This document shows, in pieces, positions 1 through 33,598 of a stretch of DNA of 33,598 nucleotides. The stretch's first letter is position 1. Every line of letters starts with the position of its first letter. The stretch comes from Paraglomus brasilianum. Lineage: Eukaryota. A program made the position numbers and the translations under genes. The notes under the pieces are model-generated. The model did not search any database, was not told where the DNA came from, and saw only the letters and a program-made list of their open reading frames with translations. Location of the stretch: NCBI GenBank assembly GCA_910592345.1, contig CAJVPI010000356.1, positions 1-33,598 of the forward strand, in the 5' to 3' direction.

Positions 1-3000
1 GGATCCAAGATTTTCGTCGGCCAAGAATGTGTTCGAATCCAAAATTTCCAGAGTAATCTTCTCATTCGGACTATAAACGGATACAAAATGAACTTCTTCC
101 CACACTGGATTTCTAGTAGAACGAGCAACTACTGTGGTAGCAACTTCTTTAGCGGAACCATCGATAATACGGACATAGGGATCTGTTGTTGTAAGGAAAC
201 TGCTGCTCTTTGAAAGGTCCTTTGCACGACTAATCTTTAATCTGACAATACCGATTATACCACCCGATTCGGTTTCGGTTTCAGTTTCTTCCTCAACTTC
301 GCGTGCCAACTTCTTACGGTCTTCCTCGGTTATCTTGTCTTTACTCTTGAGAAGAGCTCCAAAGGATTTATCACTTTCAATAGCGTCTTCTTCGACTTCG
401 TATCTCTCGATGACAAGTTGCCGTGCTGCCTCGAGCACTTCTGCTTCGACCGCGGCGTCATTGATTTGAGCAGACAACCACTTGGACGACTTTTCGTATG
501 ACTGAGCCCATTCTTCACGATGATCGACGCACACATAACGTAGATACCAAAGCAAGACCGCGGTGATACGGACTTCAGAACTAACCGTGGTTGTCTTGGA
601 GTACGAAGAGTAGTGTTTGTCCAAGTGTTGCTTAGACTCTTCAACGCTTTCGTATCCGAGCAACTCTGAGATCTTTTGATTGTGTTCGTATGAACCGGTT
701 TCACTTTGATATGAGACGAAGCGGCGAACGATGCGGACGGTGATGATACGTCGAGTGATAATTGTCCGTTGAACCGTAGTGGCAACCATACGTTTGTGTT
801 CCTCGCTTTCCCACTGATCGAATTTGAAGTGTTCGATCACGAAGCGATTAGAGGCAATATATAGACGTTCTTCGACGTCTGCATCATTGATATTTACATT
901 GAGCCATTCTTCCGTTTTTGCACAGCTTCCAATCCACTCATTATTATGTTTCCACAATAAGATTCTCAAGAATGAAGTCACAAGGACTGCAGTGAGGACT
1001 TTCTTGTCGAGTAACTTGAGTTGTTCGTCGTCGGAAATTCGAGCTGTAAATGCAGAGATAAGTTCAGTCTCGGATGTAAAGTTGAACAGTCTCGCCAAGC
1101 GTTTGTTAAGTACGAAAGAACCATCTTGACGCTGGAGTGTGATGAGAAGGAACAAGTGACGAATATTTATAGTGCTGATATCAATTTTAGCTCCATCGTC
1201 CACGTCAAAGTCGGTGAATGAATAAAAGTCACAGATAACGTGCAACTGTCCTTTCTTAGATCCCTTGTATCTGAGGTCCACGTATTTGTCAATGTGCTTG
1301 CCTTCAACATGGCCATCCGCGCAAAGCTTGACAAAGTCTTTCAATTCTAGACTGTACAAGCCCAAGAGCGTGTCGCTGAGTAATGCGTTATAGTCGTAAA
1401 CGGTAAGCGTATACTTGTCTTTAATTTCGTATACTGGAATGTAAAAGATTTCGTTCCATCGCGGTGAGTTGTTATTATAGATTGTTTGCGTCTTTCCAAT
1501 TTGCCAGCCGGAATGTGCATTGGTAATCTTAACATATGGGTCAGATTTTCCACCACTGAACCACCAATCAGCTGAGGGGAGTTTCTTTGCGCTGACAATA
1601 TGAATACGTGCAATACCGAGAAGCTTCTTGGCGACTGTTGAGCATGAACGTAAAAAAAAAAAAAAAGGGGGGGGGGGGTAAATTCTCAAGAACGATGCAA
1701 CAGTACTTGGGGGGGGGGGTTCGAATCAAAAGATAATTACCAAGTTCTCGTGTACTCTGAGTTCTGCCTTCGCGGGTGTCGACCTTTTGCGATGCAATTT
1801 CTTTTTCCCAAGTAACGTCAAGGTTTACTGTTTCTGTGTCGACAGAATAATGGCTAATAGCAATTTCTTTTACGACGCGGAATGCATCGATTTCAACTGC
1901 CTCCTTGTTTCCAAATTGAGCCCAAAGCCATCGGTAAGCCGACCAATAGCTGTTAATCCAAATTTGCCGGTGATCTATAGCCACGTAGCGATAATAATAA
2001 AGCATGAAAATAGTAACCCAGACATGCGTTTCGAGTTGAGTTATCCTTGCGCTTAATTTGCGCTTAGCAACTGCATCGTTGATGCTATTACGAAGGTTTT
2101 CTGAATTCTTGAAACCAACGAGCTTGGCCAAATCATCATCTATCTTGAAGGCACCATTACTGCTTTGGTACTGGAAGGTACGACGAATGTGGCTAATTTT
2201 CACGGTTTTGCGGGTTGGCCTCGTTAACAAAGAGCCTAAAAAAAAGAGAGGGAAAATGATAAGTTTCGTTGCTTATTTCAAGCATAGATTACAATTTCAT
2301 AGTACGACTTTATACATACTTTGATCTAGCGAGATGTTAAACAGCTTGCTGACAGTATTTCCACCGGCGATGAAAACAACTTCTTCCACTTCCAGATTGT
2401 TAGCTTTTTCACTAATATATCGTTCCGCGCGATCATAGACACCACTCCATTCGCTTTGGTAGTCTTTCAACAGAAGCTTCAAAAACCAGATAACCATACT
2501 CGTGACCCAAACGGCTTCACTCAGCTTTTGCGCCCTCTCGTCCTTACACTCGGCTTTGAAGGCTTGAACAAGAAGAGTTCCTGTTTCCAAACCAAACAAA
2601 TTGGCCAATTTATCTGACGCCAAGAAACTACCATTTGGTTCTTGGTGGAAAAGAAGAGCGTAGAATGCCGATAGATCGTATGGTTTTTTGCGAAGATTTT
2701 CAATAAAGTCTGGACCAGGTTGATGAAGAGTCGATAGAGGGAAGAATTTGGCGCGGTAGTGAAGCTGTCCCTTCTTTGGTAGTTTTTCCCATCTAAAATT
2801 GACCAAAATAAAAGGTTTAGAGACGTGAATTCGATAATGGTGACTTGTGCAATTAAAAAGTTTGACTTTACCTGTCGATACCTTTCTCGGTGCCTACATA
2901 TGCACCCTTGACCAATTTGACAAGTTCATCAGTAACTTGGAAAGTTATCTTGCCGAGAGTCTTATGTTTCGTGAAAGTGTTAAAATCCATCAATTCGAAT

Positions 3001-4378
3001 ATAAATTTCTCGTTAAGTTGTTTTATTGGCAGATAATGAACTTCATTCCAAACAGGATTCAAATCATCGTCGATGACTCTGGTAGTAGCAATGATATTGT
3101 TGCTTCCATGTGGAAAGACGCGAACATAAGGATCCGATTTGCCTAATGACATTTTTTTTTTTTTCAAGAAATGAATTGTGAGTATTCTAAAACGTTTTCC
3201 TTGACTACAGAAATCGGCATGATGGTTAAGTTTTTAGTACCTCCAGGAACCCAATTGTCAACATTCAAAACGTCCTTTGCTTGAACAAACTCGATTCTCA
3301 ATACACCAATAGCATTGGCTGAACAGAAAAACAAATCGAATTATATTAAGTACGGGGCAATGCGGCTAGAAAATCATCAAAAAATTGACACCGAATGCAC
3401 TGACATCTCACATACCAGATTTAGGTGTGTTGATAGGTATCGTAACCCAAATTGCAGACTTGCCACTTTTTCCGAAAGCCTTGGAAGTAGTGTCGGCCAA
3501 CACGATTTGCGCAGTCTCTTTTACGGTGCCCTTGATGTCTAACACGAGCTGCGGATTGTTTTGTAAAGCGAGATGACCTTCTTTCGTGAAAATCCATCGC
3601 TGGTTGTTGGCATTAGCAAGAGTTTTTCGCGCGTTAAAGACGAGACGACCACCGACTTTGCCTGATTTGAGATTAGCAAACCAAACAAAGAGTATGAGTG
3701 CCAAGTAGGTAAATAGTCACGATCATGATGACAATGAGATTATATTATTATAAATGCGAGCACGATTTTAATTCTAAACTAATTCCGGGACGTTTTACGA
3801 TAATAAACTATCTACCCGAATGTTAGTATGACTATGATATTCCCGATCATTGTAGACGTCTTGATGTTGATAGTTTTTATAATAAACTATTTCTGTGATT
3901 TATTTACATGATACGTAGATACATATAAACAAACTAGGCAAGGCGGGGATAGAAAATACTTTTACATATTTCATATAACCCTGCATTAAAAAAATTATCT
4001 CCACAGTCACATGATCTAACCGCATCTATCTCGATTTGGGGCATGTGATTTTCATCTAATATCGATCTACATCTAAACTTAAGCATCTACATCAAATTAT
4101 CAAATTAAAACAGACACATTACCGCCTTCAACCTCGAGGACATTGTTCGAACTCTTGTGGACTATCCAGCCGTTGTCGTATCTCCATAATTGATTTTGAT
4201 CGTGATCAGTGTTACTCTTTTGACGTGCAAGGATACTCTTGGAACCACTCCAGAAACCACGTTCAAGGTCGATAACTAAATTCTGAGCGGGGGCAGCGGT
4301 TGTAGAAGTCCCAGAGGGGGAAGCCACCGACTTGATGTAAAAGTCTCCGCGAGGAAACTCTTGCGTTTCGATAGTCAT
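1..4378 (-). CDS. Multi-exon modular protein (>=1151 aa, 3' end outside window): ricin-B/CBM13 lectin-like N-terminus, three tricalbin-type C2 domains, four helical domains resembling the VWA5A/PARP4 C-terminal domain
   Basis: Exons 4378-4123, 3661-3416, 3318-3241, 3142-2872, 2792-2320, 2235-1741, 1634-<1. All introns are GT-AG, phases balance and there are no internal stops. QxW motifs (NQLWRY, NQRWIF) and VLEV/VLDI indicate ricin-B. C2 motifs: GVLRIEFVQAKD...GKSDPYVRV...LNPVWNE; GIARIHIVSAKK...GKSDPYVKI...SPRWNE; GIVRLKISRAKD...TDPYVRI...NPVWEE. The last exon is missing from the ORF track because it has no stop within the window. Confidence 0.88.
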
Positions 4379-5661
4379 GATCGTGTTTCGTTTAATACAC
4401 GTGCGTTGCCAAGATAGAAAATATTGAAGACTTTCTCTTGAAGCAACGAGGGTACAAGAAAATAAATATTAATAAACTAACGTTTTCCGAAATAAAATTT
4501 CGGTGCAAAGAGCTGACAAGTGGGATGATGGCATTTTATGAGTAAAGAGGACTGTGCTACAGATTGTTGATACTTTCCCATACAACAAAGATTTAGATTA
4601 GTATTGCAAAAAAGGGTCGGCTGAGGAAGAGGCTAAACTTATCCGGTCGCACAAGTAAGAGAAAAAGCTTTTCAACGGGATGGGATGATTATTGATGATT
4701 GATAATTGACAATTGATAGTTGATAGTCATGGTTGATTAAATGACATGGATTATGCATATATACATTCCAATTTTCGTGTATATTCAATTGAATTGATTA
4801 TTGCTTTCGTATTTTATTGTCATCGACTAATTTATTCTACAAGCCTTTGCATATCCAACTCTAACAAAGCCACAAGACTATTCCACAAGGTTGTTATTTG
4901 ATTGTATCATATTTGGGTTGTGTAAGACTGGATGATGGTGACGAATATGTTTCCGAGTAACTTGAGATCTTCCCAGATTATAATCATTCGCCTAAACACA
5001 ACAAAGATCATCCCGTTATTCTAAAACATTCTATAACTAAACGGGTTGGAACGTTTTTCATGAAGGGGGCTTGCGTTTTGTTTTACAATATATCTTTTAT
5101 ACAGAATGCAACGCATACGTATAATCATCGGTTTATATATGTTATTGTTATCGTGCATATACAGTAGGCGTGCTTTAGCGTGTCAGTACTCGATGCATAT
5201 AATAGTATTTGCTGTGTAAGGAATCTACAGGTTATGTATTGATTATCGATACTCATCTACTAATTGTGCCATTTTAGAAACATTAACCGTATTCTTTTCA
5301 ACTGCCAAGTCTTTTGTTGCTCTCGTAAATAACATTGTTATTCTAATACGGTAGGAGCCCCTGTCAGGGAACAGTCTAGGCAGAAAGCGACGAACTGGGC
5401 AACAATATGTCTAGAGCATCCTTTGGAACGAAATAACAACATTTGTCTCTTGTTTATTTGTGTGTACAACACAACAGTCATGATTATTGCTATCATATCT
5501 CATTATCACCATCACATCGTCCTATTTCATATTTGGCTATATTTGAGAGTTGGTGCTGCGTTGAACAAACACAGACTGTATTATAAGCTTAAATGCCTGT
5601 TAAGTACAGATTTTCCAGGACTTTCTGATAGTTCCTCCCCGCCCTTTTTGATAAAGAAACT

Positions 5662-5785
5662 TGCAGTATATTAGTATGCAGTTATTATTATACAGTACTT
5701 ATGCAGTATACAGTACTTGGATGCAGTATGTTAATATACAGTACTTGGATGCAGTATACTTGGATGCAGTATATTAGTAACAGTG
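5662..5785. repeat. Degenerate minisatellite built from CAGTACTTGGATGCAGTAT-like units
   Basis: Repeated (a)tgcagtat and cagtactt(gg) subunits in irregular tandem arrangement. Confidence 0.7.
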
Positions 5786-6992
5786 CATAGATATAATTAC
5801 ATCTTTTAATCTTCCAATGTGGCTTAGACGGTTTAAATCATTCCATCTGAAACCATGAACACGACAGAAGAATGGCGTAAGGTACATCCACCATTTTTGA
5901 GTTGAATGAAAAAAGCATTTGATTACAATGTTGTGATCGCCGTTCTTCCCCCCTTAACAATAAACTTCTCAGAATCCAAAACTAAACTGTTGGTCGAGAA
6001 TATGCATACGTAATTGCGGAATATACGTACAAGGAGTAAATGATAACGACACAACGTTTAAAAAAAGATTATACACAACTTTTTCCCTCCCCCACTTTCC
6101 CCCTTCTCCCTCCCCCCAGTTCTAAAACTTAATTGCCAGTAAGCTACATTTCTCGTACTCACATTCTGTTCGATGGGTGGGGATTGGCATAATTAAAAAT
6201 GCCGTGTACAACGTTGTGGAAACACAAGATGCAATAGAAGATAGGGTAAACCGACCCCTGTAGTTATGCAATCAGTGTAGCGCGTGCGATTGTCGACGGT
6301 TGTTCACATGGGTGTCAAAGAAGTCTGTTGGGGACTATCAAGGAGAAACAGTGTTCCAGACATTGCAGCAGAAAAAAAAAAGAGAAAAAAAAAAAAAGAG
6401 AAAAAAGAAAGTCAATTGTTACGTACTGCAGATACAACATTTCCAAACATGCACAGAGTGCATATATTTTAAATATGCATCTGAGAGATCGACATTATCT
6501 TAACACATCTAATTTATACTAAACGGTCGATTTTTAGTTTGACAGCAAGGGTATCCAAAGCACTAATTGATGGGTGTTTACTAGTGTGTTTTATAAACAA
6601 TATCAAGCGAAATTAGATAACAAAACCTTACCGATAACGAAATCGGCCTTGTTTCTTTTTAGTGTACAAGCAACTAGGACCGACTCTGATTGGCCTATCG
6701 ATCAATTGCAAACAGGGAAGAATTTATATCCTGACGATAACGCTAGTAAGAGCCAATTGCAAGAAAGGGGGATTGAGTCTGAGGAGTAGAGTGTGTGGGC
6801 GAACCACTCGACGAGTATATACAAGTTATTTCTAGACGCTGATTGAAGTAACCGTAATTGGAAGTATTCGCAATTGGCGTATTTGATTCACGTGGCAAAG
6901 CGTGAGGTCGGACGTAATTACGGTTTTCTGGAGACCTAACTGGGTATGACGAAGTAAATGGGCTGAAACATGATTTCCGTTAATGCATGTTA

Positions 6993-7040
6993 CAATAATA
7001 ATAATAATAATCATTATTATTATTATTATTATTACTATTA
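6993..7040. repeat. (AAT)n followed by (ATT)n microsatellite, quasi-palindromic
   Basis: An aataataat... run followed directly by an attattatt... run. It explains the poly-Ile ORFs on both strands. Confidence 0.85.
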
Positions 7041-8886
7041 TGCACATAACCCCAAACTTTCGCAATCACTACACGCCGGTTATACTTGACTCGTCAAAAA
7101 ATGTACCACCGGAACGCAATATCTGGTATTGCTTTGTTTATTTATGTCGCATTGCACAATCTTTACTTGCATCCTACGACATGCACCTCCTGCCAAAAGT
7201 GACCGCCACATTGTAATCGGCAAATAAAATTTTGCCTAGTGTCAAATTGGCGGCGCAAGTAATAATAATGATAATAATGGATAATAATGATGATAACAAT
7301 AATAACAATCAAATTACCAGTTTTCCTGTCTTCCGCTTTTTTTTTTTAAAAAAAAAAAAAACTTTCCCGAGCAACCGATCTTTTAAAATCGAAAAGCTAT
7401 GTGGGCTGACTCTTTTGGATCTTACAATGAGGCGGTCTCAGCGCTTGAGAATGGCCCGAACTAGCCATGTTTTCATGAACAATTTCTTAAAAGATTCATA
7501 TTCCCCAAACTGCTTCTCGTCCAGATTGACCACCAATTTTGAGCAAGCTCTTATTTGTACTGGTGAAACGAATCTCTTGAACAGATGATCTAATCTGGTA
7601 CAGTTTGCTTCACGCAGTCATTTGGAGTAATGAATCTCGGTTGAATAGTAGTTGCTTGAAAAGAGAAAAACTACGTTTTCTGCCCCCAATTGAACGAACA
7701 AAAACCCTTGTCAATAAATAAAAAAAGTTGGTAAGGTATCTTGAAGAGTTAACATATAATATACCTTTTATAATAAAACAGCATATCATCCAAAGAGGCA
7801 GTCACTTCTAAGCGCTATGTAACTGACATAGTTCTCGAAATTCGTCGAACATGACGGTAATCTCATTCAAGCGTCATGCTACCAATTTTGTAAGCCTCCA
7901 AGGCAGATAATATTGTTTACAGATATTAGTCTTTTCTCTCCAACAAACCTAAAAGTCGTATACACTCATCGAAAACAAAAGCCCAAGGTAATACTATCTT
8001 GTCAATCTACGCCAAAATGATTTTCCGCATAAATAAGTTTCGTGCCATCACGACCCTTTAATTGGATAACATTTTCCATATAAAGTTAAACGGCTTATTA
8101 ATCTTTGTTTAGAAAATAAAGTTACCTTCGTGAAATACAACATTGTCTCTGCAACTGGGGGGAAGTTTGATTTCTATCTAATAGAGTTCTTTGTTATTCT
8201 TGTCTTTTGTTTTCCAATAAGACAGAACAATCTGTTAGCAGAAAGTTTTGTTTGTTTTTTTTGCGACTGAAAACGTTGTTCGATACTTTTACAGTGATAC
8301 AGACAAATTTAAGGGGGGAAGGTACTGCAAGCAGATGTTGGTTCTTCCCCCAAAGACTAAGATGTTTTGCAGTGTAATCTCAGGAAATATACGGACTTGA
8401 TGACGATTACCACATCAGCCTGTAGGAGACATAATTCCCAAGTCGGAAAGCACGTGCGCATCGACATTAGCGAAATTATCTATGAAGAGCGTAGTCAAGG
8501 GTCCATCAAATACTTCGCTCTCCCGCATTAGTTGGCACTACACGAAAAACTTTCATAAATTTCGATGTTGTCACATAATATATTAATATGCACAACGGTT
8601 AGACTAATACCTTAAATATCTGGAACTCATTTCTTGAGACCATATATTAATATAGTCGAAAAATACATTGCTAAAACAACATTGTCTTTATTAAAAAAAG
8701 AGAGAGACCAATATTACTAATACTACTAATACTAAAGACAACATTAGTCTTTACTAAAACGAAGGGGGAAAGCGAAAAGGAAGAAAAAAAGCCATTTTGC
8801 TAGAAATACACAACAGAAATTATAACATTTGCTATTCTCTTAACAAATTTCTACATACCATGACGTAGATTCACGACGAAAATAAA

Positions 8887-9531
8887 CTATGCCTCACATA
8901 TTTTTCTAATTTCAACTTGTACGGCTGGCCAGTTTCTTTCGATATTTACATCTTTGAAACGGGTAAAATCCATTTCTATGTTGAATAGATTACCCTTAAT
9001 GAAATTTCTCCAATCGTGTTCACCAGCGATAGTGACCACAACGAGCTTTATAAGCTCGTAATATACCATACATCCTCTCTCGAAATCAGCCAAGTCTCCC
9101 CATGATTCCCTCGTATCCTTGGTTACGCAGTATCCAATTTCAAATATTGATTTATACAGACTGCCTTGCTGGGATCGAACGCGTTCGGCTAATGTCTTGA
9201 TGTGATCTCTATAATTATCAGGATCGGTGGGGTGGGGGTATAGTTCCTTACAGTCGTCGTCTCTCATTACCACGATCATTTGTTTTGCACAATGTACAAT
9301 GTGCGTGGTGATGTCGTCGTCGTCGTAAAATTTGGTTATCTGACCATCTTCATAATGATGAATGAACGCTCCACCACTAGGTTCAATTATTACACAAGTA
9401 ATTTTGTTTGCGTTATTGGCGTTGTAAAGATCTATTTCATTTCTTAAAAGATCTATTTCATTTTTTAAAAGATCTATTTCATTTCTTATAACAGCCTCTG
9501 ATGATGTTGGGACTTTATCGATAAAAGACAT
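8887..9531 (-). CDS. Hypothetical protein, 214 aa, intronless, with an N-terminal heptad repeat (K/R)NEIDLL x3
   Basis: ATG-started 645-nt ORF with globular-like composition in AT-rich DNA. TATA-like TATTTAAA lies ~80 nt upstream on the minus strand. No family recognised. Confidence 0.7.
   Translation of the reverse strand: MSFIDKVPTSSEAVIRNEIDLLKNEIDLLRNEIDLYNANNANKITCVIIEPSGGAFIHHYEDGQITKFYDDDDITTHIVHCAKQMIVVMRDDDCKELYPHPTDPDNYRDHIKTLAERVRSQQGSLYKSIFEIGYCVTKDTRESWGDLADFERGCMVYYELIKLVVVTIAGEHDWRNFIKGNLFNIEMDFTRFKDVNIERNWPAVQVEIRKICEA
9426..9488. repeat. 21-bp tandem repeat x3 (coding heptad)
   Basis: aaagatctatttcatt(tc/tt)tta repeated three times inside the 214-aa ORF. Confidence 0.9.
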
Positions 9532-10382
9532 GAGAAAATAGAACGCGTAGATAGATAAGAGGGAAAGAGGGAAAACGATATGTGGGTGATCCGCAAACCA
9601 AATTTGGGTTTAAATAGGGGGTAGTTGTTTAGATATCCACCAATGGCTCGAATTTCGCGTGAGCAATACGCGACATGTGAAACCATTTTATGGACATAAA
9701 GCACTACACACAGTTTGACAGTGGGTCAAAAGATTCCAATGATGGAGAAACTGCCTGGAAGATAAACCTTGATCTGGAAGGCCTTGTGAAGCAGTTTCAG
9801 AAAAAACGTCCACAACATGCATAGAGTGGGTGAGTTATAAAGAAATTAAGGGAAGAGCAACAGTCTGCAGTGTGATGCTGCCTAAATAAAGACCTCGAAA
9901 CCTCTGCAGTGTGATGCTGCACCACGTTGCACATCTCAGACAAGTTGAATTATTAATAATCATTCGCCTTGACATATTAATATGTAGAATACTATTACTT
10001 ACTACTACCAACGTTTCCGTTGTCGTCCGCTACTTGCATCATTCTTATGCACTGCTATTCATTATTCGCCTTGGTTACCCGTCGGCAAATGTATGACAAG
10101 GTAAATAACTATATGAAAATATTAGAATACTCTCAACCACAAGGATGGAAAACTCTTAGCAAGTCACTAATTTCCATCACCCGGTTGGCCTATCTGTACG
10201 AGCAGAACATTTACCGTCAGGATGGCAGGCAAAATCATTCCGCTTGCACTTCTGCGTTAATGTTTCGAGGAGAACAACGTCAAGCAGGACGTGTGGGTAA
10301 AAGGAATAGTGCCATCACGATCATGTTTCCCTAATACAAGGTTGACTTTACCCAGTCCCAATCGCATGACAAAAATTCAATA

Positions 10383-10625
10383 CACAGTGAAAGATATAAC
10401 GGATCCGCTTTATCGAAAAACCGATATAGTCAGAAAATGTTCGATATAGCGGTTTTTATTTATTACTTGATATTTATTAAGTTTGTCAATGTAAAAGTAT
10501 ATTCGTCAATAAGAATTGATCAAGGCACGTTTGCAAACTCCACTGTATTTAATCAGTAAAAACTCTGGTTCCAAGAAAAAACTCCGTACCCGTTATATCG
10601 ATGAACCGTTATATCGAGTGTATCT
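10383..10625. mobile_element. Possible degenerate pogo/Tigger-like MITE relic
   Basis: Left end (ca)cagtgaaagatataacggatc; right end gaaccgttatatcgagtg (reverse complement gatataacggttc). Extra internal cgatata / ccgttatatcga motifs. Termini and TSD are eroded. Confidence 0.4.
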
Positions 10626-11443
10626 GCTGATCACTGAATTTTGCATTTCTTGGAGATGGGCAGCTCAAAAATAATCCCGAGAGAAAGGCTTGCCGAATTA
10701 CGTAGCCGAGCAAGAGATATCTTTCATAGCTCAGCTGAAAACAATGAATGGTGGAGAAATAACCGCCAGAGCCAACGTCTGAAAAGGGAAATGCGTACCA
10801 ATAAGAGAGAGCTTACTACTGGGATCGCAATACACTTCTTTGCCAGAAAACGTATCTGGGATTGGTCGCAATTATTTGGAAACATTAGCAACGAACCGCG
10901 TGTGCCGCGATGGGAACCAAATAACCATTGACAAAGACACGTTCCATAGCGTGCATGTGCTCGTACATACAGTACATAAACGTGTTCTCTTTATACTATA
11001 AACTAATACGTTATCCGTTATCATGAATGTACTGTGGAAAATGATAGAGCTATTAAATGTCAAACGGTTTGTCTGCTAGTGGCACGAAATATATGTACGT
11101 GTATGCGTATGTATTTTTTTGTTTACTTATTTTTTCTTTTGATTTACTCGTTCTCCTTAGCAAGTCTGTTACATTTGTCATGTACAACGCAAACAGATAG
11201 ATTTACTTTACAATACATTACTGTTTACAAAAAATTAGACCCCAACCAAGTCCGAGAATCATTACAAATTAAAGCAGGCAGCACTATACATTAAATATAC
11301 AATTCCGTGTCTATGCTGTGATATTATTAAATTACATACGTTTTTTTTTCTTTCGAAAGTTCCGTTCAAGGCCAAAAGCAAATGCCACTTCGTAAGAGCC
11401 GGACGCGTAATCGGAGTGGTACGGAAAATATACTTTTCCTATT

Positions 11444-13890
11444 TTAGGTTTCCGGCCTCCCATCACTCCCTTCTGTATGGGTCATTGTAGTACATTCTAT
11501 TTCTTGATTTGTTTGGCTGGTGATTGAAATTTCTCCAGTTTCCTCGAACGCAGCATATGATTTTGGAAGGCAGCGGCCTATTGTCGAATCATGAAGAACA
11601 AATATTACTATAATCGCAGCTATTGCAGTTGCCATGTTTTGTGTTGACTGTTTTTGAAGTGGGAGAGAGAGAGAAAGAGAGGAAAGAGAATGAGTAATTC
11701 GTCATCAGGATGTATGTAATCCGTTTAAAACGTGTGTAATTCAAATTTACCTGTGATATCCAGAAATTTTTTGGCGTTATCGGTAGGAACGACATTGTAG
11801 ATGCACAAATATTAAAAACTATCGTAACTACCAACAATACCATCAACACTAACATCTATATAATAAAAAACAAAAAAACAAAAAAACAATTAGTAAACTT
11901 GGAACTAATAATTCTTCTCAATCTGTACTATAAAATATCTCCAGCCAGTTTAACTGACCTTTTTAGCCGCCTTCGATCTCAACCTTTGTTTCGCAGAGCT
12001 AATGACTGCTTTCTTTAACGCGGTAACCATAAACGTTCCGAATATAATAAATTCCAGAGCTAATATAAGTAGACACACACAATCTACCAAGAAAGCCACC
12101 TTCAACGCTGTCATCACCCATGGAAGATTCACGTGAGAATAAGAGACCATGCGTACAACGAATGCCATTGTAAAACAGAAAACGCATAAGCGGAGTAGAT
12201 AGGTGTATACTAGAGATAATCTACGAGAGAGCAATGTGTGGTGATTGTGTTTTTGACACATGATTTCGGCGGCTTTTTTCCATACCATTTCGACAGCAGT
12301 GAATATTATTATCAACATTAAATTTTTAAAGCAGATTATGAAAGCATAACCAATCAAAGGTATGCGGGCTTCATGAATGCTACCGGGACTCACTTCAAGG
12401 ATTATCGCCGAGGCTAAAAAGGGGAGGGAAGGAGGTGGAATTGTAAACATTTCAACCATATGTTTCAAGTGGTAGGATACTTTTAAAATTTATCAATTAC
12501 ACATACCAATACAAACAAGCATGATGCCGGGATAAATCCAATACTTTGCATTTGTTATCACATAGCCTATTCGACTATAAGTCTTTACCAGACAATACAG
12601 ACACATTGTGGTGATGGCAAAATATGCAATACCCATAACCAGTGACCACACTATCCATGCAGCACTCTGAACAAGAGTAATCCATGGGCCATGATCTATT
12701 AAATCGAATTAAGAAATTGTTATGGTATTTGTTTTAAACCCTGGTTAATTTAATATATCAGTGTTATGCATACCTGAAGTAATCTCACCCGTATATATAA
12801 TACTTCCCAATCCTCTGATTCCACTCATATCGTCTTGACTGACAAGACTAATCGATGGAATAGAATTAGCGAGAATTTTTCTGTCTCCGGCATAAATTTC
12901 GTCCAGTCCAGGTACGCCTCCATTACCAGAAGTTATTACGAGAATCTTTTGCGCCATATTATTTATGTCGCGTTTTCGATTTCGATTTCGAGGGCGTATT
13001 ATTGGCAATCCTACAGATAGGCTTGAGCTTAAGGAAGGAATCGGTAAAAGCGTTGTCAAGCCATTTATCGTAGTCGGTATGCCAACCCCAGTAACTACTC
13101 CTCCAACAACAGTATTCACTCCTCCAACAACAGTATTCACTCCACCAACAACAGTATTCACTCCTCCAACCACTCCACCAACAACAGTATTCACTCCTCC
13201 AACCACTCCTCCAACCACTCCTGTAGCTGTATTTACTATTGATGAAACGAGGGCGGTGGGTACTACACCCGCTGCTGTTGGAGTAGGGTTTCCAGCTGGT
13301 GTAGGTTGTGCCGGTTGTGAAGCTGAAGCAGGCTGTGCAGCTGTAGTAATTGTGGTGGGCATTGATCCAGGCGTAGAAGCAACGGTAATCGTCTCGACAG
13401 ATACCTTAGTACTAACAGATACTTGCCCATCAGGACCGGTTACTGTCTCGTACGTAGTCTGGGTGGTGACTAATTCTGCTAGCGTTGGCACGTCATTTTC
13501 GTCACCAGCCGCGGGATTTTTATCGGGGTCTTTATACCATCCATTATCCTTTAAGATATCAGCGTAGCTTCTACATCCTTGGCTAAAGGCTAGTTCGAAT
13601 GGCACGACCAGTATGTCTATATTATCTTGTAATGGATCTATCCGACAGGGGTTTTCTGTCGTACTATTAGCGAACGATACAATCTCTATTCGACCTTTAA
13701 TTGTTCCATAGTCAATTGAGTTTGCAAGCACAAAGTCTACATTTGAAAATGATCCGAGTACGGCTTGGGATTCGGAATATATAGTGAGAGTAGAGAGAAC
13801 TCGGGTGGGAGTAAAGAGAATGGTTGGTATTATTTTTAGAAACAAGGATGTGAAAAAACGGAATGTTGATGGTCGCGAGGATATGAGCAT
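11444..13890 (-). CDS. Signal peptide + PA (protease-associated)-like ectodomain with a low-complexity insert + seven-transmembrane (GPCR-like) domain, 689 aa
   Basis: Exons 13890-12774, 12695-12507, 12413-11959, 11855-11751, 11647-11444 (2070 nt, phases balance). Seven hydrophobic segments: AAWIVWSLVMG..., YWIYPGIMLVCIASAII, IPLIGYAFIICF..., LSLVYTYLL..., LKVAFLVDCVCLLIL..., MLVLMVLLVVTIVF, MATAIAAIIVIFVL. A basic loop KQRLRSKAAKK lies between TM5 and TM6. PA-like pattern IKGRIEIV...PC...ILVV...GCRSY...KILVI...PG...IPSISLVSQDD. Confidence 0.8.
13094..13222. repeat. Coding tandem repeat (21-bp GGVNTVV and 12-bp GGVV units)
   Basis: actcc(t/a)ccaacaacagtattc repeated four times, interleaved with cactcctccaac units. 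Confidence 0.9.
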
Positions 13891-14776
13891 TGTTAATTAG
13901 TAACGAATTCGAAGATAGAGTGAAGGTGGGGGGAAGCGCGACGTGTTAATATGGCAACGTCTGTGATTGAGTATACGCTTGCAGCCAAAGAAAGTTTAAA
14001 TGGTAATTAATAGGAGAGTGTACAACTATAAGCTAGTGTAGTTTGTATGCATTATTGATGGTGCAATTAAGTCGATGGAAAAGGAATAGTCGCCAAAAGA
14101 ATGAAAATATGTTTTCCTTGGTGCTGCCAAGCTCGAATGAACGATTGAAATCAAATTGGTGATCCAACTGCTACTTCTTATACCTGTCAATTTATACGAC
14201 GAAAATGAACAATGCCCTATCAGTATTTTGTAAATATTACATGCAGATTGAAACCCTTTGTGTGTTACATGCCCAAATGCAAATATTGCACATGGATTTT
14301 GATTAATTGAATGCACCTTTTATAGTAATGATATGATTAACAGATTGAGGGAACTGGTAATATTTGCAACGTACTCGTTCCAATACCGTTGATAGGGAAA
14401 ATAGTTTTTACAACGAATGTAACTCTAGATACATAGCTTCTAAACACAACATGTGTGTCGCCATTACATAAACAAGATCAAGAGTACAGAAACAAACTAC
14501 AATTTATTGTTGTCTTTCGCCATCGAGCCTGTCAGCTTTTTCCTGTGCGTCGATTAGTATTAGTAACCAATGGGGTAACTAGCAGGAGGTTAACCAAAGG
14601 AGTATTATTAAGGTTGGTGAATAACGCAAAACTTGGCACCAACTTTAGGCAACAATGTTCAGCATAATAAATAACACTTTATTACTTTTATGTACAAAAT
14701 AATATATATCTAATTATACAAACCCCAAAACAACAAGAAAAGGTATTACTATATGCACGCCCCCTGCAAACCGTAT

Positions 14777-15388
14777 CTACAACATAAACAACTGCACAAG
14801 AACAGCAAAAACTGGCACTATAGCAGACCCGATTCCTTCGGATAGTAACACAGAAACAATTGACGACGCTGACGATGACGAGCCAGAAGCGGGCGGGGAG
14901 GTTGTCGTAGTGGATGTGGAGTTACCGCTGCCAGTACCAGCGCCACTACTGGTGGTAGAAGAAGATGTGGTAGTTGGACTACCGGTCGCAGTGTCGGTAC
15001 CCGTAGTAGTGTTGGTAGTGGCAGTGTCGGTAGTGGCAGTGTCGGTAGTAGTGGGAGGATAATACTCGGAACTCGTGGAATTGCCTGGAGGATAATACTC
15101 GGAACTCGTGGAATTGCCTGGAGGATAATACTCGGAACTCGTGGAAGTGCCTGAAGTAGGAGTAGCATCGGGAGGGGGAGGACTGGCACCGGGAGGAGGA
15201 GTAGTAGTATCGGTAGTAGAACCGGGAGGGGGAGTAGCATCGGGAGGGGGAGGACTGGCACCAGGAGTAACACCGGGAGGGGGAGGAGCATCGGGAGAAC
15301 TTTTAGCATTTGCATGAATTGACGAGTGCGATAGAAGTAAAAGCGTTGCACAGAAAAGAATAGTGATGTATTTCAATTTGCGTGACAT
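14777..15388 (-). CDS. Secreted, probably GPI-anchored Pro/Ser/Thr-rich cell-surface glycoprotein (extensin/AGP-like), 203 aa
   Basis: Hydrophobic signal peptide (YITILFCATLLLLSHSSIHANA), SPPPP motifs, three SSEYYPP repeats, NST sequons, Ser/Thr stalk, small-residue omega region (SGSSSSAS) and hydrophobic C-terminus (AIVPVFAVLVQLFML). Confidence 0.85.
   Translation of the reverse strand: MSRKLKYITILFCATLLLLSHSSIHANAKSSPDAPPPPGVTPGASPPPPDATPPPGSTTDTTTPPPGASPPPPDATPTSGTSTSSEYYPPGNSTSSEYYPPGNSTSSEYYPPTTTDTATTDTATTNTTTGTDTATGSPTTTSSSTTSSGAGTGSGNSTSTTTTSPPASGSSSSASSIVSVLLSEGIGSAIVPVFAVLVQLFML
15054..15152. repeat. 33-bp coding tandem repeat x3 (G(N/T)STSSEYYPP)
   Basis: ggaggataatactcggaactcgtggaa(t/g)tgcct repeated three times. 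Confidence 0.95.
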
Positions 15389-15521
15389 CTTGGCTGCCGC
15401 GTTAAAAGAACGTCAATGAGGATGAATAAGTGTTTTTGAGCTTTTTGATTGGGAATTCGAAAATATGCGTTATCTAATTAGTAATAGTTATTGGAAATAC
15501 AAACCAGGCTGATAATTCAGG

Positions 15522-31735: not shown

Positions 31736-33598
31736 AAATGTATATGTCGTTACTTCCAGGCGTTAATTATAATCCAGCCAGCACTTGACAACTTGATTCA
31801 ATCCTCAGAAAACGCTTATAAACTTAAATGTATTCCTCCCTCAGAAATCACTGACATAAGTCAAATTGATGCTGTTCATTACGCTACTTACACGCAAACA
31901 TCGGACGATAGTGAATTCAAGGAAACGATGATAATGCTGGTACTCCTTGGAAACAGCGAAGAATATACACCAAAATTTGTGAGCGAGTTTGCTAGAATAT
32001 ACTCACTTCCAACACACAAGTACAATAATGACGTTAATCGGTTCATAAGATATTCCAAATGGCTTAATTATCGCAATAGCTTCATGATATATGGATTTAC
32101 CAAGTATGACGGTAACTATTACATGGTTGCTAACAGACAGTTTCACCGTTGTTATTCTCGATATGGATTCTGCTCCGCATGTGGAATGCTTAGATGTAGT
32201 CCTGTGTGGTGCATTTGCGGCCATAAACAATTATCTAGTGGATGGACTAGCAACAACATGAAACTCGACGAGTTTATTAAGAAATCACAGATACAAACAA
32301 ATTCAGCAAACGATGCCTATTTGGAATGGATTCCTTTGATTGTATTGATGATTGGGGATATGGCGTGCACTTATGTGATCTACCTACTTACTACTATTAC
32401 TATGCAGCCGTTAAATTGATTCCACTTGAAATAACGGTTGAGACGTCTGATTTATATTATGACAGGTAAGCCATTCAATTTTGCATCACATCTGTTGACT
32501 TATTATTATTTGGATAATGATTGACTTAATGTACCATATCATTTCCACTAGTTATGTGATGAGCATCCAGATATTCTTGCCACAGATGTTTGGATTACTA
32601 TTGGATTTACACATGATGCAAGTGAACAGAAGTATTATTTAATAAAAGACTGTGATGAGAGTCAATTATGTCTGGCATGTATACATAGATTGGCACATAG
32701 TATAAATACCTTCTGTTATTGGTGTAAAGCACCAAGACCTCTTGATTGGACAACTGGCAACAAGTCTTTGGATTCATTCATTATGGAATCATGGAATAAT
32801 ACAACCTATGAATATGATGCTTATATACAATGGGTAGAGTATTCCCTATTGACAAATCTACAAGAGATGACACTATTACACCATGGATGCACACATATAG
32901 CAGATTGGTTAGACTTGATAACAAATAAATGGGTAAAAGTAGTACTCAAACAGATAGCTAATGTTCAGTCATTTGATTTTCATCAGGTAATTTATTCATG
33001 TGTAAACAATGCAAGCAGTATTATTAAATTTGCTAATTGTTTCCTTAAATAGCTAACTAAGGAATACCCAGAGATATTAACAGGAGACAATATTTGGATA
33101 ATTGGAATCACTCAATATCAAAAGCCATCTACTCAAGCATATTATTTAGTTTTCTACCATGAAATACATGCAATATTGGACAAATTTATACAAATTCATG
33201 AAAGTGTACAATATATGCAGTATAGCAACTTTGGTGAAATTAAACAGATTGGAGTTGGTGGTTATGGAACAGTTTATACTGCCAAATATAAAACTTGTTC
33301 AGAAAAGGATATTAATATACCAGAAACTGTTGTGCTTAAAAGATTTAAGGATTTTGATCAAGTGCCAGAATTATTTATTTCTGAGGTAAGTATTCTTTGA
33401 TATTTTAACCAAAGTATTATTTAATTTATTATTCATCAGACTTTGGATTTATTTTATTAATAGCTCAGAAATCATGCCAAGTGCTCATGCAGAAATTATC
33501 CATTCCTTGAAATTTATGGAATCACACAAGACCCAGAAACAAAAGAGTACATGATTGTTATGCAATATGCTAACAATGGTAGTCTTTTGTCTTATTTG
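31736..33598 (+). pseudogene. Tyrosine-kinase-like (TKL) protein kinase with tandem degenerate N-lobe/Cys-cluster modules; apparent frameshifts; 3' end outside window
   Basis: Coding segments ~31736-32465, 32552-32986, 33053-33385, 33464->33598. Kinase motifs IGVGGYGTVY, VVLKRF, FISE|L, IYGITQDPETKEYMIVMQYANNGSL. WTSNNMKLDEFI...LEWIP and WTTGNKSLDSFI...IQWVEY motifs. A base appears missing at ~32335-37 (CCT TTT GAT expected, giving EWIPFD) and another before the 32466 donor. No in-frame ATG upstream of the first module (TGA at 31733). Confidence 0.7.

What the first reader, a model, noticed from the sequence alone, without database searches (positions are those of the whole stretch)
1..4378. 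Large modular protein: lectin + repeating [C2 + two VWA5A/PARP4-C-terminal-like domains]
Seen: after a ricin-B-like domain, the unit C2-H-H occurs twice and a third C2 begins. The four H domains share Q-x-x-(N/D/T)-G-(S/A)-(F/Y)...LA-x-L-x-G...(W)xT-hydrophobic helix...EW...(W)L (HQEPNGSF, YQSSNGAF, LQRQDGSF, YQSETGSY). Recalled knowledge: this resembles the C-terminal domain of VWA5A (Q.ANGSW.L...LA..LG...WAT.LA..WL......EW....KA..W) and the related MVP-interacting C-terminus of PARP4, which normally occur once and follow VIT/vWA domains. The C2 domains look tricalbin-type, but there is no SMP domain or TM anchor in the part seen. Inference: a cytosolic, possibly Ca2+/lipid- and glycan-responsive scaffold, for example in membrane damage sensing or repair. 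I do not recognise this architecture as characterised.
Basis: partly seen in the sequence, partly recalled or inferred. Interest (0 to 1): 0.7.

Follow-up and report, generated by a model that had tools for sequence, protein, structure and literature searches.

The report
Giant repeat protein of mycorrhizal fungi
This is the front end of a real, spliced gene of an arbuscular mycorrhizal fungus whose close relative encodes a chain of more than 3,300 amino acids made of likely calcium- and membrane-sensing C2 domains alternating with many copies of a helical domain that other proteins carry only once; it is predicted to cross-link membranes and may be part of the unknown clot that seals these fungi's open-pipe hyphae after injury.

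Summary
A 7-exon minus-strand gene (ATG 4378, open at 1) gives 1,151 stop-free residues: beta-trefoil, C2-H-H twice, and part of a third C2. RNA contigs support all six introns and contradict the public gene model, which splices out H3 and H4. A 94%-identical, intronless 10-kb contig continues it to 6 C2 and 16 H domains, still open. Named relatives with tandem H are Glomeromycota from 11 genera. H is the C-terminal domain of VIT-vWA (VWA5A-type) proteins: the profile hits one at E 1e-6 among 1.8 billion proteins, and the confident model's top structural match is such a domain (Z 10.2). The PARP4 MINT match is weak (Z 5.1). The C2s group with tricalbin C2C and keep most acidic calcium-loop residues; no SMP domain or membrane anchor was seen. 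The trefoil lacks the galactose-stacking tryptophan, so glycan sensing is doubtful. Best reading: a giant cytosolic Ca2+-triggered membrane cross-linker, plausibly for wound clotting in aseptate hyphae, where Gellins are reported absent. Function is untested, and no paper describing the family was found.

The parts
1..4378 (-). 5' part of the gene, 7 exons, 1,151 aa, open at window position 1
   Evidence: model; RNA joints; L001 94.4% identical over all 1,151 aa without gaps
3432..4360 (-). N-terminal ricin-B-type beta-trefoil (aa 7-162, split by intron 1) with an aromatic-rich inserted loop and no galactose-stacking Trp
2738..3313 (-). C2-1 (aa 170-302; introns 3 and 4 inside); D188, D197, D246, N248
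2321..2680 (-). H1 (aa 322-441), first-position (Ha) repeat
1835..2206 (-). H2 (aa 452-575), second-position (Hb) repeat
1219..1620 (-). C2-2 (aa 612-745); D629, D638, D687, N689, D694; aromatic loop WWF
814..1170 (-). H3 (aa 762-880), Ha repeat; the part aligned to the VIT-vWA C-terminal domain and to PARP4 MINT
388..747 (-). H4 (aa 903-1022), Hb repeat
1..255 (-). C2-3, cut by the window end (aa 1067-1151); first loop Asp missing; D1091, D1139, N1141, D1146, E1147
   Evidence: completed in L001
3662..4122 (-). Intron 1, 461 nt
   Evidence: joint in 4 of 4 RNA runs
3319..3415 (-). Intron 2, 97 nt
   Evidence: exact joint in 2 of 4 runs
3143..3240 (-). Intron 3, 98 nt
   Evidence: 4 of 4 runs
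2793..2871 (-). Intron 4, 79 nt
   Evidence: 3 of 4 runs
2236..2319 (-). Intron 5, 84 nt
   Evidence: 4 of 4 runs
1635..1740 (-). Intron 6, 106 nt, homopolymer-rich
   Evidence: not in the joint table (repeats skipped), but X4 record 22 joins 1741-2050 directly to 1069-1634; also absent from L001

Best explanation
The gene encodes a very long chain (more than 3,300 residues in a 94%-identical relative) of C2 domains spaced by tandem VWA5A-type helical domains, predicted to be cytosolic, which likely docks on membranes when Ca2+ rises and would thereby cross-link plasma membrane and organelles into the clot at a hyphal wound. Shown: the gene, its splicing, the domain order, the fold model of H and its homology to the VIT-vWA C-terminal domain (about 0.9). 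Inferred: cytosolic location; Ca2+-dependent binding through several C2 domains, with aromatic loop tips inserting into the bilayer (about 0.7); H pairs acting as stiff spacers and protein-docking units; extra anchoring by the trefoil's aromatic loop and, in relatives, by amphipathic tail helices and a terminal Cys cluster. Most speculative: that the job is wound sealing (about 0.35).
For: One spliced transcript, longer than the window; the neighbouring 6.7 kb is all but uncovered in the same runs, so the signal is RNA. Six C2 domains in 10 kb. The family C2s form one group next to tricalbin C2C; in yeast Tcb3 the C2C Ca2+ site is required for Ca2+-stimulated activity (PMC8163979, passages). 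The DPY Asp and the loop-3 D-x-N are kept in all three window C2s and most relatives, with W/F at the loop tips. No hydrophobic N-terminus, and no segment above KD19 1.64. C2-1, C2-2, C2-3 and H1-H4 each form position-specific groups across Paraglomus, Diversispora, Gigaspora and Acaulospora, so the layout is old and conserved. [quoted passage not shown]
Against: No binding, location or phenotype data. The C2 loops carry 3-4 Asp plus Asn rather than five Asp; C2-3 lacks the first Asp; the Rhizophagus members I saw have a degenerate C2 without these residues (P0205). A trefoil-headed version was named only in Paraglomus and Diversisporales; I did not identify one in Glomerales, which also clot. 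The match of the trefoil to 6lci (mdaA-1, recalled as a Gellin domain, not confirmed) came up in 1 of 3 queries (yes; no). H also occurs with kinases, Sel1, BACK and a jacalin-labelled domain, which suits a general interaction module. RNA contig depth cannot rank expression.
Confidence: 0.35

Rival explanations
1. A constitutive structural tether: it holds lipid droplets or other organelles to each other or to the cortex during bulk cytoplasmic flow, with Ca2+ only tuning the grip.
For: In Diversisporales relatives the tail H repeats come in triplets, each preceded by a conserved helix of hydrophobic moment about 0.5 (no control run). P0031 scores 30.7 bits on Pfam REF, cut-off 25, though no single stretch passes; REF as a lipid-particle protein is recalled. 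pTM 0.83 suggests a fixed H-H geometry.
Against: The Paraglomus chain shows C2-H blocks throughout the 10 kb seen, not this tail. The REF hit may reflect composition.
Confidence: 0.27
2. A signalling or non-self-sensing scaffold: H is a mobile docking module that joins sensors (trefoil, jacalin, Sel1) to kinases, and the giant is a membrane platform for such partners.
For: H is annotated with Tyr-kinase-like domains in 9 proteins (P0002, 5, 9, 36, 39, 96, 150, 159 by Pfam; P0006 by BLAST), six of them one related kinase group; also with Sel1 (P0111), BACK (P0055) and a jacalin-labelled protein (P0190).
Against: The kinase joins the array at different points in different models, as merged neighbouring genes would; no RNA support was checked. 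The window gene and L001 have no kinase.
Confidence: 0.17
3. A multivalent trans-regulator of vWA proteins: each H binds the vWA domain of free VIT-vWA proteins, as the domain is predicted to do in cis in VWA5A and Dictyostelium Vwa1.
For: Homology to the CTD. The CTD is modelled to pack on the vWA domain, about 905 square angstroms (PMC10539598, passages).
Against: That interface is itself a prediction. The best-kept H residues (Q, G, T, W) are shared with the CTDs and look structural. No AMF vWA partner was in hand.
Confidence: 0.1
4. A vault-docking protein: H repeats act like PARP4 MINT and bind major vault protein.
For: 9bw6_B 1570-1708 aligns at Z 5.1, rmsd 4.3, 103 of 136 residues; the QxxxG motif falls in register with PARP4 1580-1584 (score not significant). 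MINT binds MVP (PMC12280208, passages).
Against: Vaults are described as missing from fungi (PMC3762200, passages; a 2013 survey). The match is weaker than to the VIT-vWA CTD or to C4d.
Confidence: 0.03

Closest known systems
VWA5A/BCSC-1 and Dictyostelium Vwa1 clade of intracellular VIT-vWA proteins (PMC10539598); T. brucei VWFA protein in PDB 9e5c
   Same: H is homologous to their ~100-120 aa helical C-terminal domain (profile E 1.4e-6; Z 10.2).
   Different: They carry it once, at the end, after VIT and vWA. Here it is free of both and repeated at least 16 times, interleaved with C2 domains.
PARP4 MINT domain (PDB 9bw6, PMC12280208)
   Same: Similar helical arrangement (Z 5.1) and a QxxxG motif in register.
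   Different: No significant sequence match; no PARP, BRCT, VIT or vWA; MVP is not known in fungi.
Tricalbins / extended synaptotagmins (Tcb3 C2C, PMC8163979)
   Same: The C2 domains group with tricalbin C2C and share its loop pattern; likely the same Ca2+-triggered membrane docking.
   Different: No ER hairpin anchor and no SMP lipid-transfer domain, so no lipid transfer is expected; C2s are separated by H pairs.
Gellins of Mucorales (Nguyen et al. 2021; paper not held, seen only through passages of PMC12712441 and PMC10873517; the ten-trefoil layout is recalled)
   Same: Large repeat proteins of aseptate fungi with a beta-trefoil; proposed here as the functional counterpart.
   Different: One trefoil instead of ten; helical and C2 repeats; a Ca2+ trigger is inferred instead of shear unfolding.
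alpha/alpha-barrel thioester domains (C3d, C4d, A2M) and squalene-type cyclases
   Same: Partial structural overlap at Z 4-6.8; QxxxG resembles their repeat motif (recalled).
   Different: Middling scores for helical folds; H is a small separate domain, with no sign of a closed barrel or catalytic site.

Membership tests
VWA5A-type VIT-vWA proteins | VIT and vWA domains | tested here: not met
   Pfam finds only C2 and ricin-B in the window exons and both long frames of L001; the far C-terminus was not seen
VWA5A-type VIT-vWA proteins | Helical C-terminal domain homologous to the VWA5A CTD | tested here: met
   4-repeat profile hits P0162 744-842 (VIT-vWA by Pfam) at E 1.4e-6 in 1.8 billion; a 120-segment family profile scores four CTD-type tails 42-54 bits against at most 5.4 in 1,000 shuffles; top VIA match 9e5c_4t 728-842, Z 10.2, rmsd 3.8, 106 aligned. 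Human VWA5A itself was not in hand.
VWA5A-type VIT-vWA proteins | One CTD at the very C-terminus | tested here: not met
   4 internal copies in the window, 16 in L001
PARP4 / vault PARP | MINT fold | tested here: inconclusive
   Z 5.1, rmsd 4.3, 103 aligned; no Foldseek hit; sequence alignment at -0.2 bits
PARP4 / vault PARP | PARP catalytic, BRCT, VIT and vWA domains | tested here: not met
PARP4 / vault PARP | MVP present in the organism and bound | not testable with these tools
   no genome held; literature reports vaults missing from fungi
Tricalbin / E-Syt | N-terminal membrane hairpin | tested here: not met
   max KD11 0.87 in the first 45 aa; max KD19 1.64, in an H core helix
Tricalbin / E-Syt | SMP lipid-transfer domain | tested here: not met
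   no Pfam SMP in window exons or L001
Tricalbin / E-Syt | Tricalbin-type C2 domains | tested here: met
   18 family C2s group with 7 tricalbin third-C2 rows (83/72) inside a tricalbin C2A/C2C branch (90/96); 53 of 92 C2 segments used
Ricin-B (R-type) lectin | beta-trefoil with three subdomains | tested here: met
   PF00652 E 2e-6 (28.3 bits, cut-off 29) in L001; relatives pass (P0003 35.8 bits); PDB lectin hits. Not folded.
Ricin-B (R-type) lectin | Aromatic residue that stacks on galactose | tested here: not met
   Ala opposite the abrin B Trp in both subdomains aligned there; no aromatic at these places in 13 family rows. The role of that Trp is recalled.
Gellins | Ten tandem beta-trefoil domains (recalled) | tested here: not met
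   one trefoil in 10 kb
Gellins | Trefoil of the Gellin type | tested here: inconclusive
   6lci best hit for the L001 head (E 7e-7), absent for P0054 and the P0003 head; identity of 6lci as a Gellin domain is recalled
Gellins | Wound- or flow-triggered gelation | not testable with these tools
   needs bench work

The most novel reading that the evidence does not exclude
This is the missing clotting protein of arbuscular mycorrhizal fungi: a Glomeromycota-built giant, assembled from a tricalbin Ca2+ sensor, a freed VWA5A docking domain and a membrane-inserting trefoil, that gels cytoplasm and organelles at a wound on a Ca2+ signal, an independent solution to the problem that Gellins solve by shear in Mucorales.
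Probability: 0.25. Interest if true: 0.85.

Novelty: new variant of a known kind. Interest (0 to 1): 0.62.

Why it matters
How the unwalled, pressurised hyphae of mycorrhizal fungi stop bleeding within seconds is stated as unknown in a 2025 review, and this family gives a concrete, conserved candidate whose single units can be tested in vitro. It also frees the VWA5A C-terminal domain from its usual context and repeats it, which offers a way to learn what that domain does. Practically, the public model of this gene splices out H3 and H4 and most relatives are annotated as fragments, which helps explain why the family has gone unnoticed.

Tried and rejected
A single-sequence fold of exon 7 failed (pLDDT 35) and was not used. 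Foldseek on the good model gave no match at E<=0.001. Profile searches of PDB sequences with H alignments found no PARP4; one search listed the 9e5c VWFA protein only at E 0.61. ESM Atlas gave only unnamed clusters. A search for named VWA5A relatives from the P0162 tail returned only itself, so human and fungal VWA5A were not compared directly. The profile-profile match A4 vs A5 (98.7%) is partly circular and not counted as independent. P0098, a sigma-factor-like repeat protein, is a false positive (no hit with the refined profile). The prokaryote genome scan with the H alignment did not run. The Gellin paper is not held, and the role of the T. brucei protein was not found. Rejected: separate genes; the public splice form P0180 (unspliced RNA contigs span 274-1632, 408-1039 and 202-818); a tricalbin fragment. 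Earlier-findings look-ups gave nothing on this family.
Full report
1. The gene. Reading the minus strand and joining at GT-AG sites gives seven exons from ATG 4378 to the window edge and 1,151 codons without a stop. The order is beta-trefoil (aa 7-162), C2 (170-302), H1, H2, C2 (612-745), H3, H4 and a cut third C2. No genome is held. Protein P0180, named Paraglomus brasilianum and lying on a contig of 33,598 bases, the window's length, matches the model over aa 1-778 and 1037-1120, so it is the public model of this gene; it uses the same six introns but adds two more in exon 7 that drop H3 and H4 and shift frame.

2. It is one expressed gene and far longer than the window. Of 24 runs listed, 22 are on record as RNA, mostly rhizosphere metatranscriptomes. 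In the four best, introns 1, 3 and 5 are joined in 4 of 4, intron 4 in 3 of 4, intron 2 exactly in 2 of 4, and intron 6 by one contig of X4; contigs run unspliced through 274-1632, 408-1039 and 202-818, against the public model, and three runs go on past position 1. The stretch 4601-11270 is empty in three runs and nearly so in the fourth. Locus L001, an intronless 10,122-base contig, is 94.4% identical to the model over all 1,151 residues without gaps. It reads trefoil, C2-H-H, C2-H-H, C2-H-H-H-H, C2-H-H, C2-H-H-H-H, C2-H and is still open: 6 C2 and 16 H, with one short local frame slip near base 5,265. The protein therefore exceeds 3,300 residues.

3. The family. Nine long relatives at 39-82% identity are all named Glomeromycota. 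A profile of the four window repeats finds 227 proteins among 1.84 billion, 150 listed. With the genera are Paraglomus, Diversispora, Gigaspora, Scutellospora, Dentiscutata, Cetraspora, Racocetra, Acaulospora, Funneliformis, Rhizophagus and Entrophospora; no other fungal group was named, but most hits were not looked up. Diversisporales members read trefoil, three C2-H blocks, then a tail of H triplets (up to 17 full repeats in the partial P0026). Six proteins end in a shared domain with terminal cysteines, which touches Pfam DUF3759 at 20-26 bits, cut-off 25, in four. H repeats sort by position (first after C2, second after C2, tail) and C2s likewise, across Paraglomus and Diversisporales, so the C2-Ha-Hb block was duplicated early and kept. 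Rhizophagus members seen are a degenerate C2 plus eight H (P0205) and four H plus a jacalin-labelled end (P0190).

4. What H is. Pfam has no model for it. The window-only profile hits the last 100 residues of P0162, a VIT-vWA protein whose best PDB relative is PARP4, at E 1.4e-6. A profile of 120 segments from the model and 21 family proteins (five of them not looked up by name) scores P0162 and three similar tails at 42-54 bits; 1,000 shuffles reach at most 5.4 and reversed sequences less than 0. AlphaFold with 83 rows models H3-H4 at pLDDT 94.4, pTM 0.83, each repeat a helix, a short hairpin around QxxxG and five more helices. Against 48,161 chains the only match with Z>=8 is 9e5c_4t 728-842 (Z 10.2, rmsd 3.8, 106 aligned); the 842-residue sequence of that entry is named a VWFA domain protein, and I infer that chain 4t is its second copy. 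Z 10 alone is not proof for a helical fold, but it agrees with the sequence result. PARP4 MINT follows at Z 5.1, behind complement C4 and CD109 (5.5-6.6), and Foldseek finds nothing. So H is a VWA5A-type CTD, and MINT is at most a more distant cousin. In VWA5A and Vwa1 the CTD is predicted to dock on the vWA domain (PMC10539598, passages); MINT docks on MVP (PMC12280208, passages); vaults are described as missing in fungi (PMC3762200, passages).

5. C2 and trefoil. The family C2s form one group (93/81) beside tricalbin third C2 domains (83/72, not firm). They keep the DPY Asp and a loop-3 D-x-N, usually an acid near the loop end, and aromatic loop tips; C2-3 lacks the first Asp. Tcb3 C2C uses Asp or Asn residues for Ca2+ and is needed for the Ca2+ response (PMC8163979, passages). 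No SMP, TM segment or hydrophobic leader was seen (the hydropathy scan covered the model and the first 1,717 aa of L001). The trefoil has Ala where abrin B has Trp and an aromatic-rich insert in 11 of 13 rows (two of the rows are the same gene), which suits membrane contact better than galactose binding (inference). Its best PDB hit was 6lci, mdaA-1, which I recall as a Gellin domain but could not confirm; two other family heads did not hit it.

6. Mechanism. Shown: architecture, expression, homologies. Inferred: a cytosolic chain with many Ca2+-switchable membrane feet separated by stiff helical pairs would bind several membranes at once when Ca2+ floods in. [quoted passage not shown] I commit to a wound-triggered membrane cross-linker at 0.35, against a constitutive organelle tether (0.27), a signalling scaffold (0.17), a vWA regulator (0.10) and vault docking (0.03).

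7. Novelty. Every module has known kin, but the protein fails membership of VWA5A, PARP4, tricalbin and Gellin families. Full-text searches combining AMF with C2, ricin, VWA5A, MVP-ID and gellin terms found no description of it; subscription journals are largely not covered. Verdict: real, larger than reported, a new variant of multi-C2 membrane scaffolds built on a liberated VWA5A domain; interest 0.62.

Noticed in passing
window 22011-23594, minus strand: A 527-aa open frame with seven Tau/MAP tubulin-binding repeats (PF00418, E 1.4e-82), partly covered by RNA contigs. Tau-type repeats in a fungus are unusual by my recall.
   Followed up: partly
P0002, P0005, P0006, P0036, P0039, P0096 (also P0009, P0150, P0159): A related group of Tyr-kinase-like domains is annotated in front of the H/C2 array in several Diversisporales, joined at different points; either true fusions or a conserved neighbour merged by gene callers.
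   Followed up: partly
P0190 cluster (Rhizophagus irregularis), P0111, P0055: H repeats fused to a jacalin-labelled end, to Sel1 repeats and to a BACK domain: H is a mobile module in these fungi.
   Followed up: no
C-termini of P0001, P0030, P0037, P0110, P0143, P0176: A shared end domain, borderline DUF3759, finishing in cysteine clusters, a possible lipid-anchor signal.
   Followed up: partly
window 3761-4115: RNA contigs inside intron 1 in three runs (depth 2-11): retained intron, pre-mRNA or another transcript.
   Followed up: no
run X1 record 4, laid on window 2646-4380: A more diverged spliced copy with the same introns, from a relative or a paralogue.
   Followed up: no
window 28219-30776, minus strand: Multi-exon Kelch-repeat gene with a hydrophobic stretch near its end.
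   Followed up: no
window 31736-33400, plus strand: Three open frames that look by eye like pieces of an AMF kinase-type gene; no Pfam hit.
   Followed up: no
window 12745-13896 and 14777-15412, minus strand: Two Ser/Thr/Pro/Gly-rich repeat frames with hydrophobic ends, possibly surface proteins; both touched by RNA contigs, no Pfam hit.
   Followed up: no
P0001 (Paraglomus occultum model): Lacks the second C2 and holds a long exact internal duplication, probably annotation or assembly errors like those in P0180.
   Followed up: no
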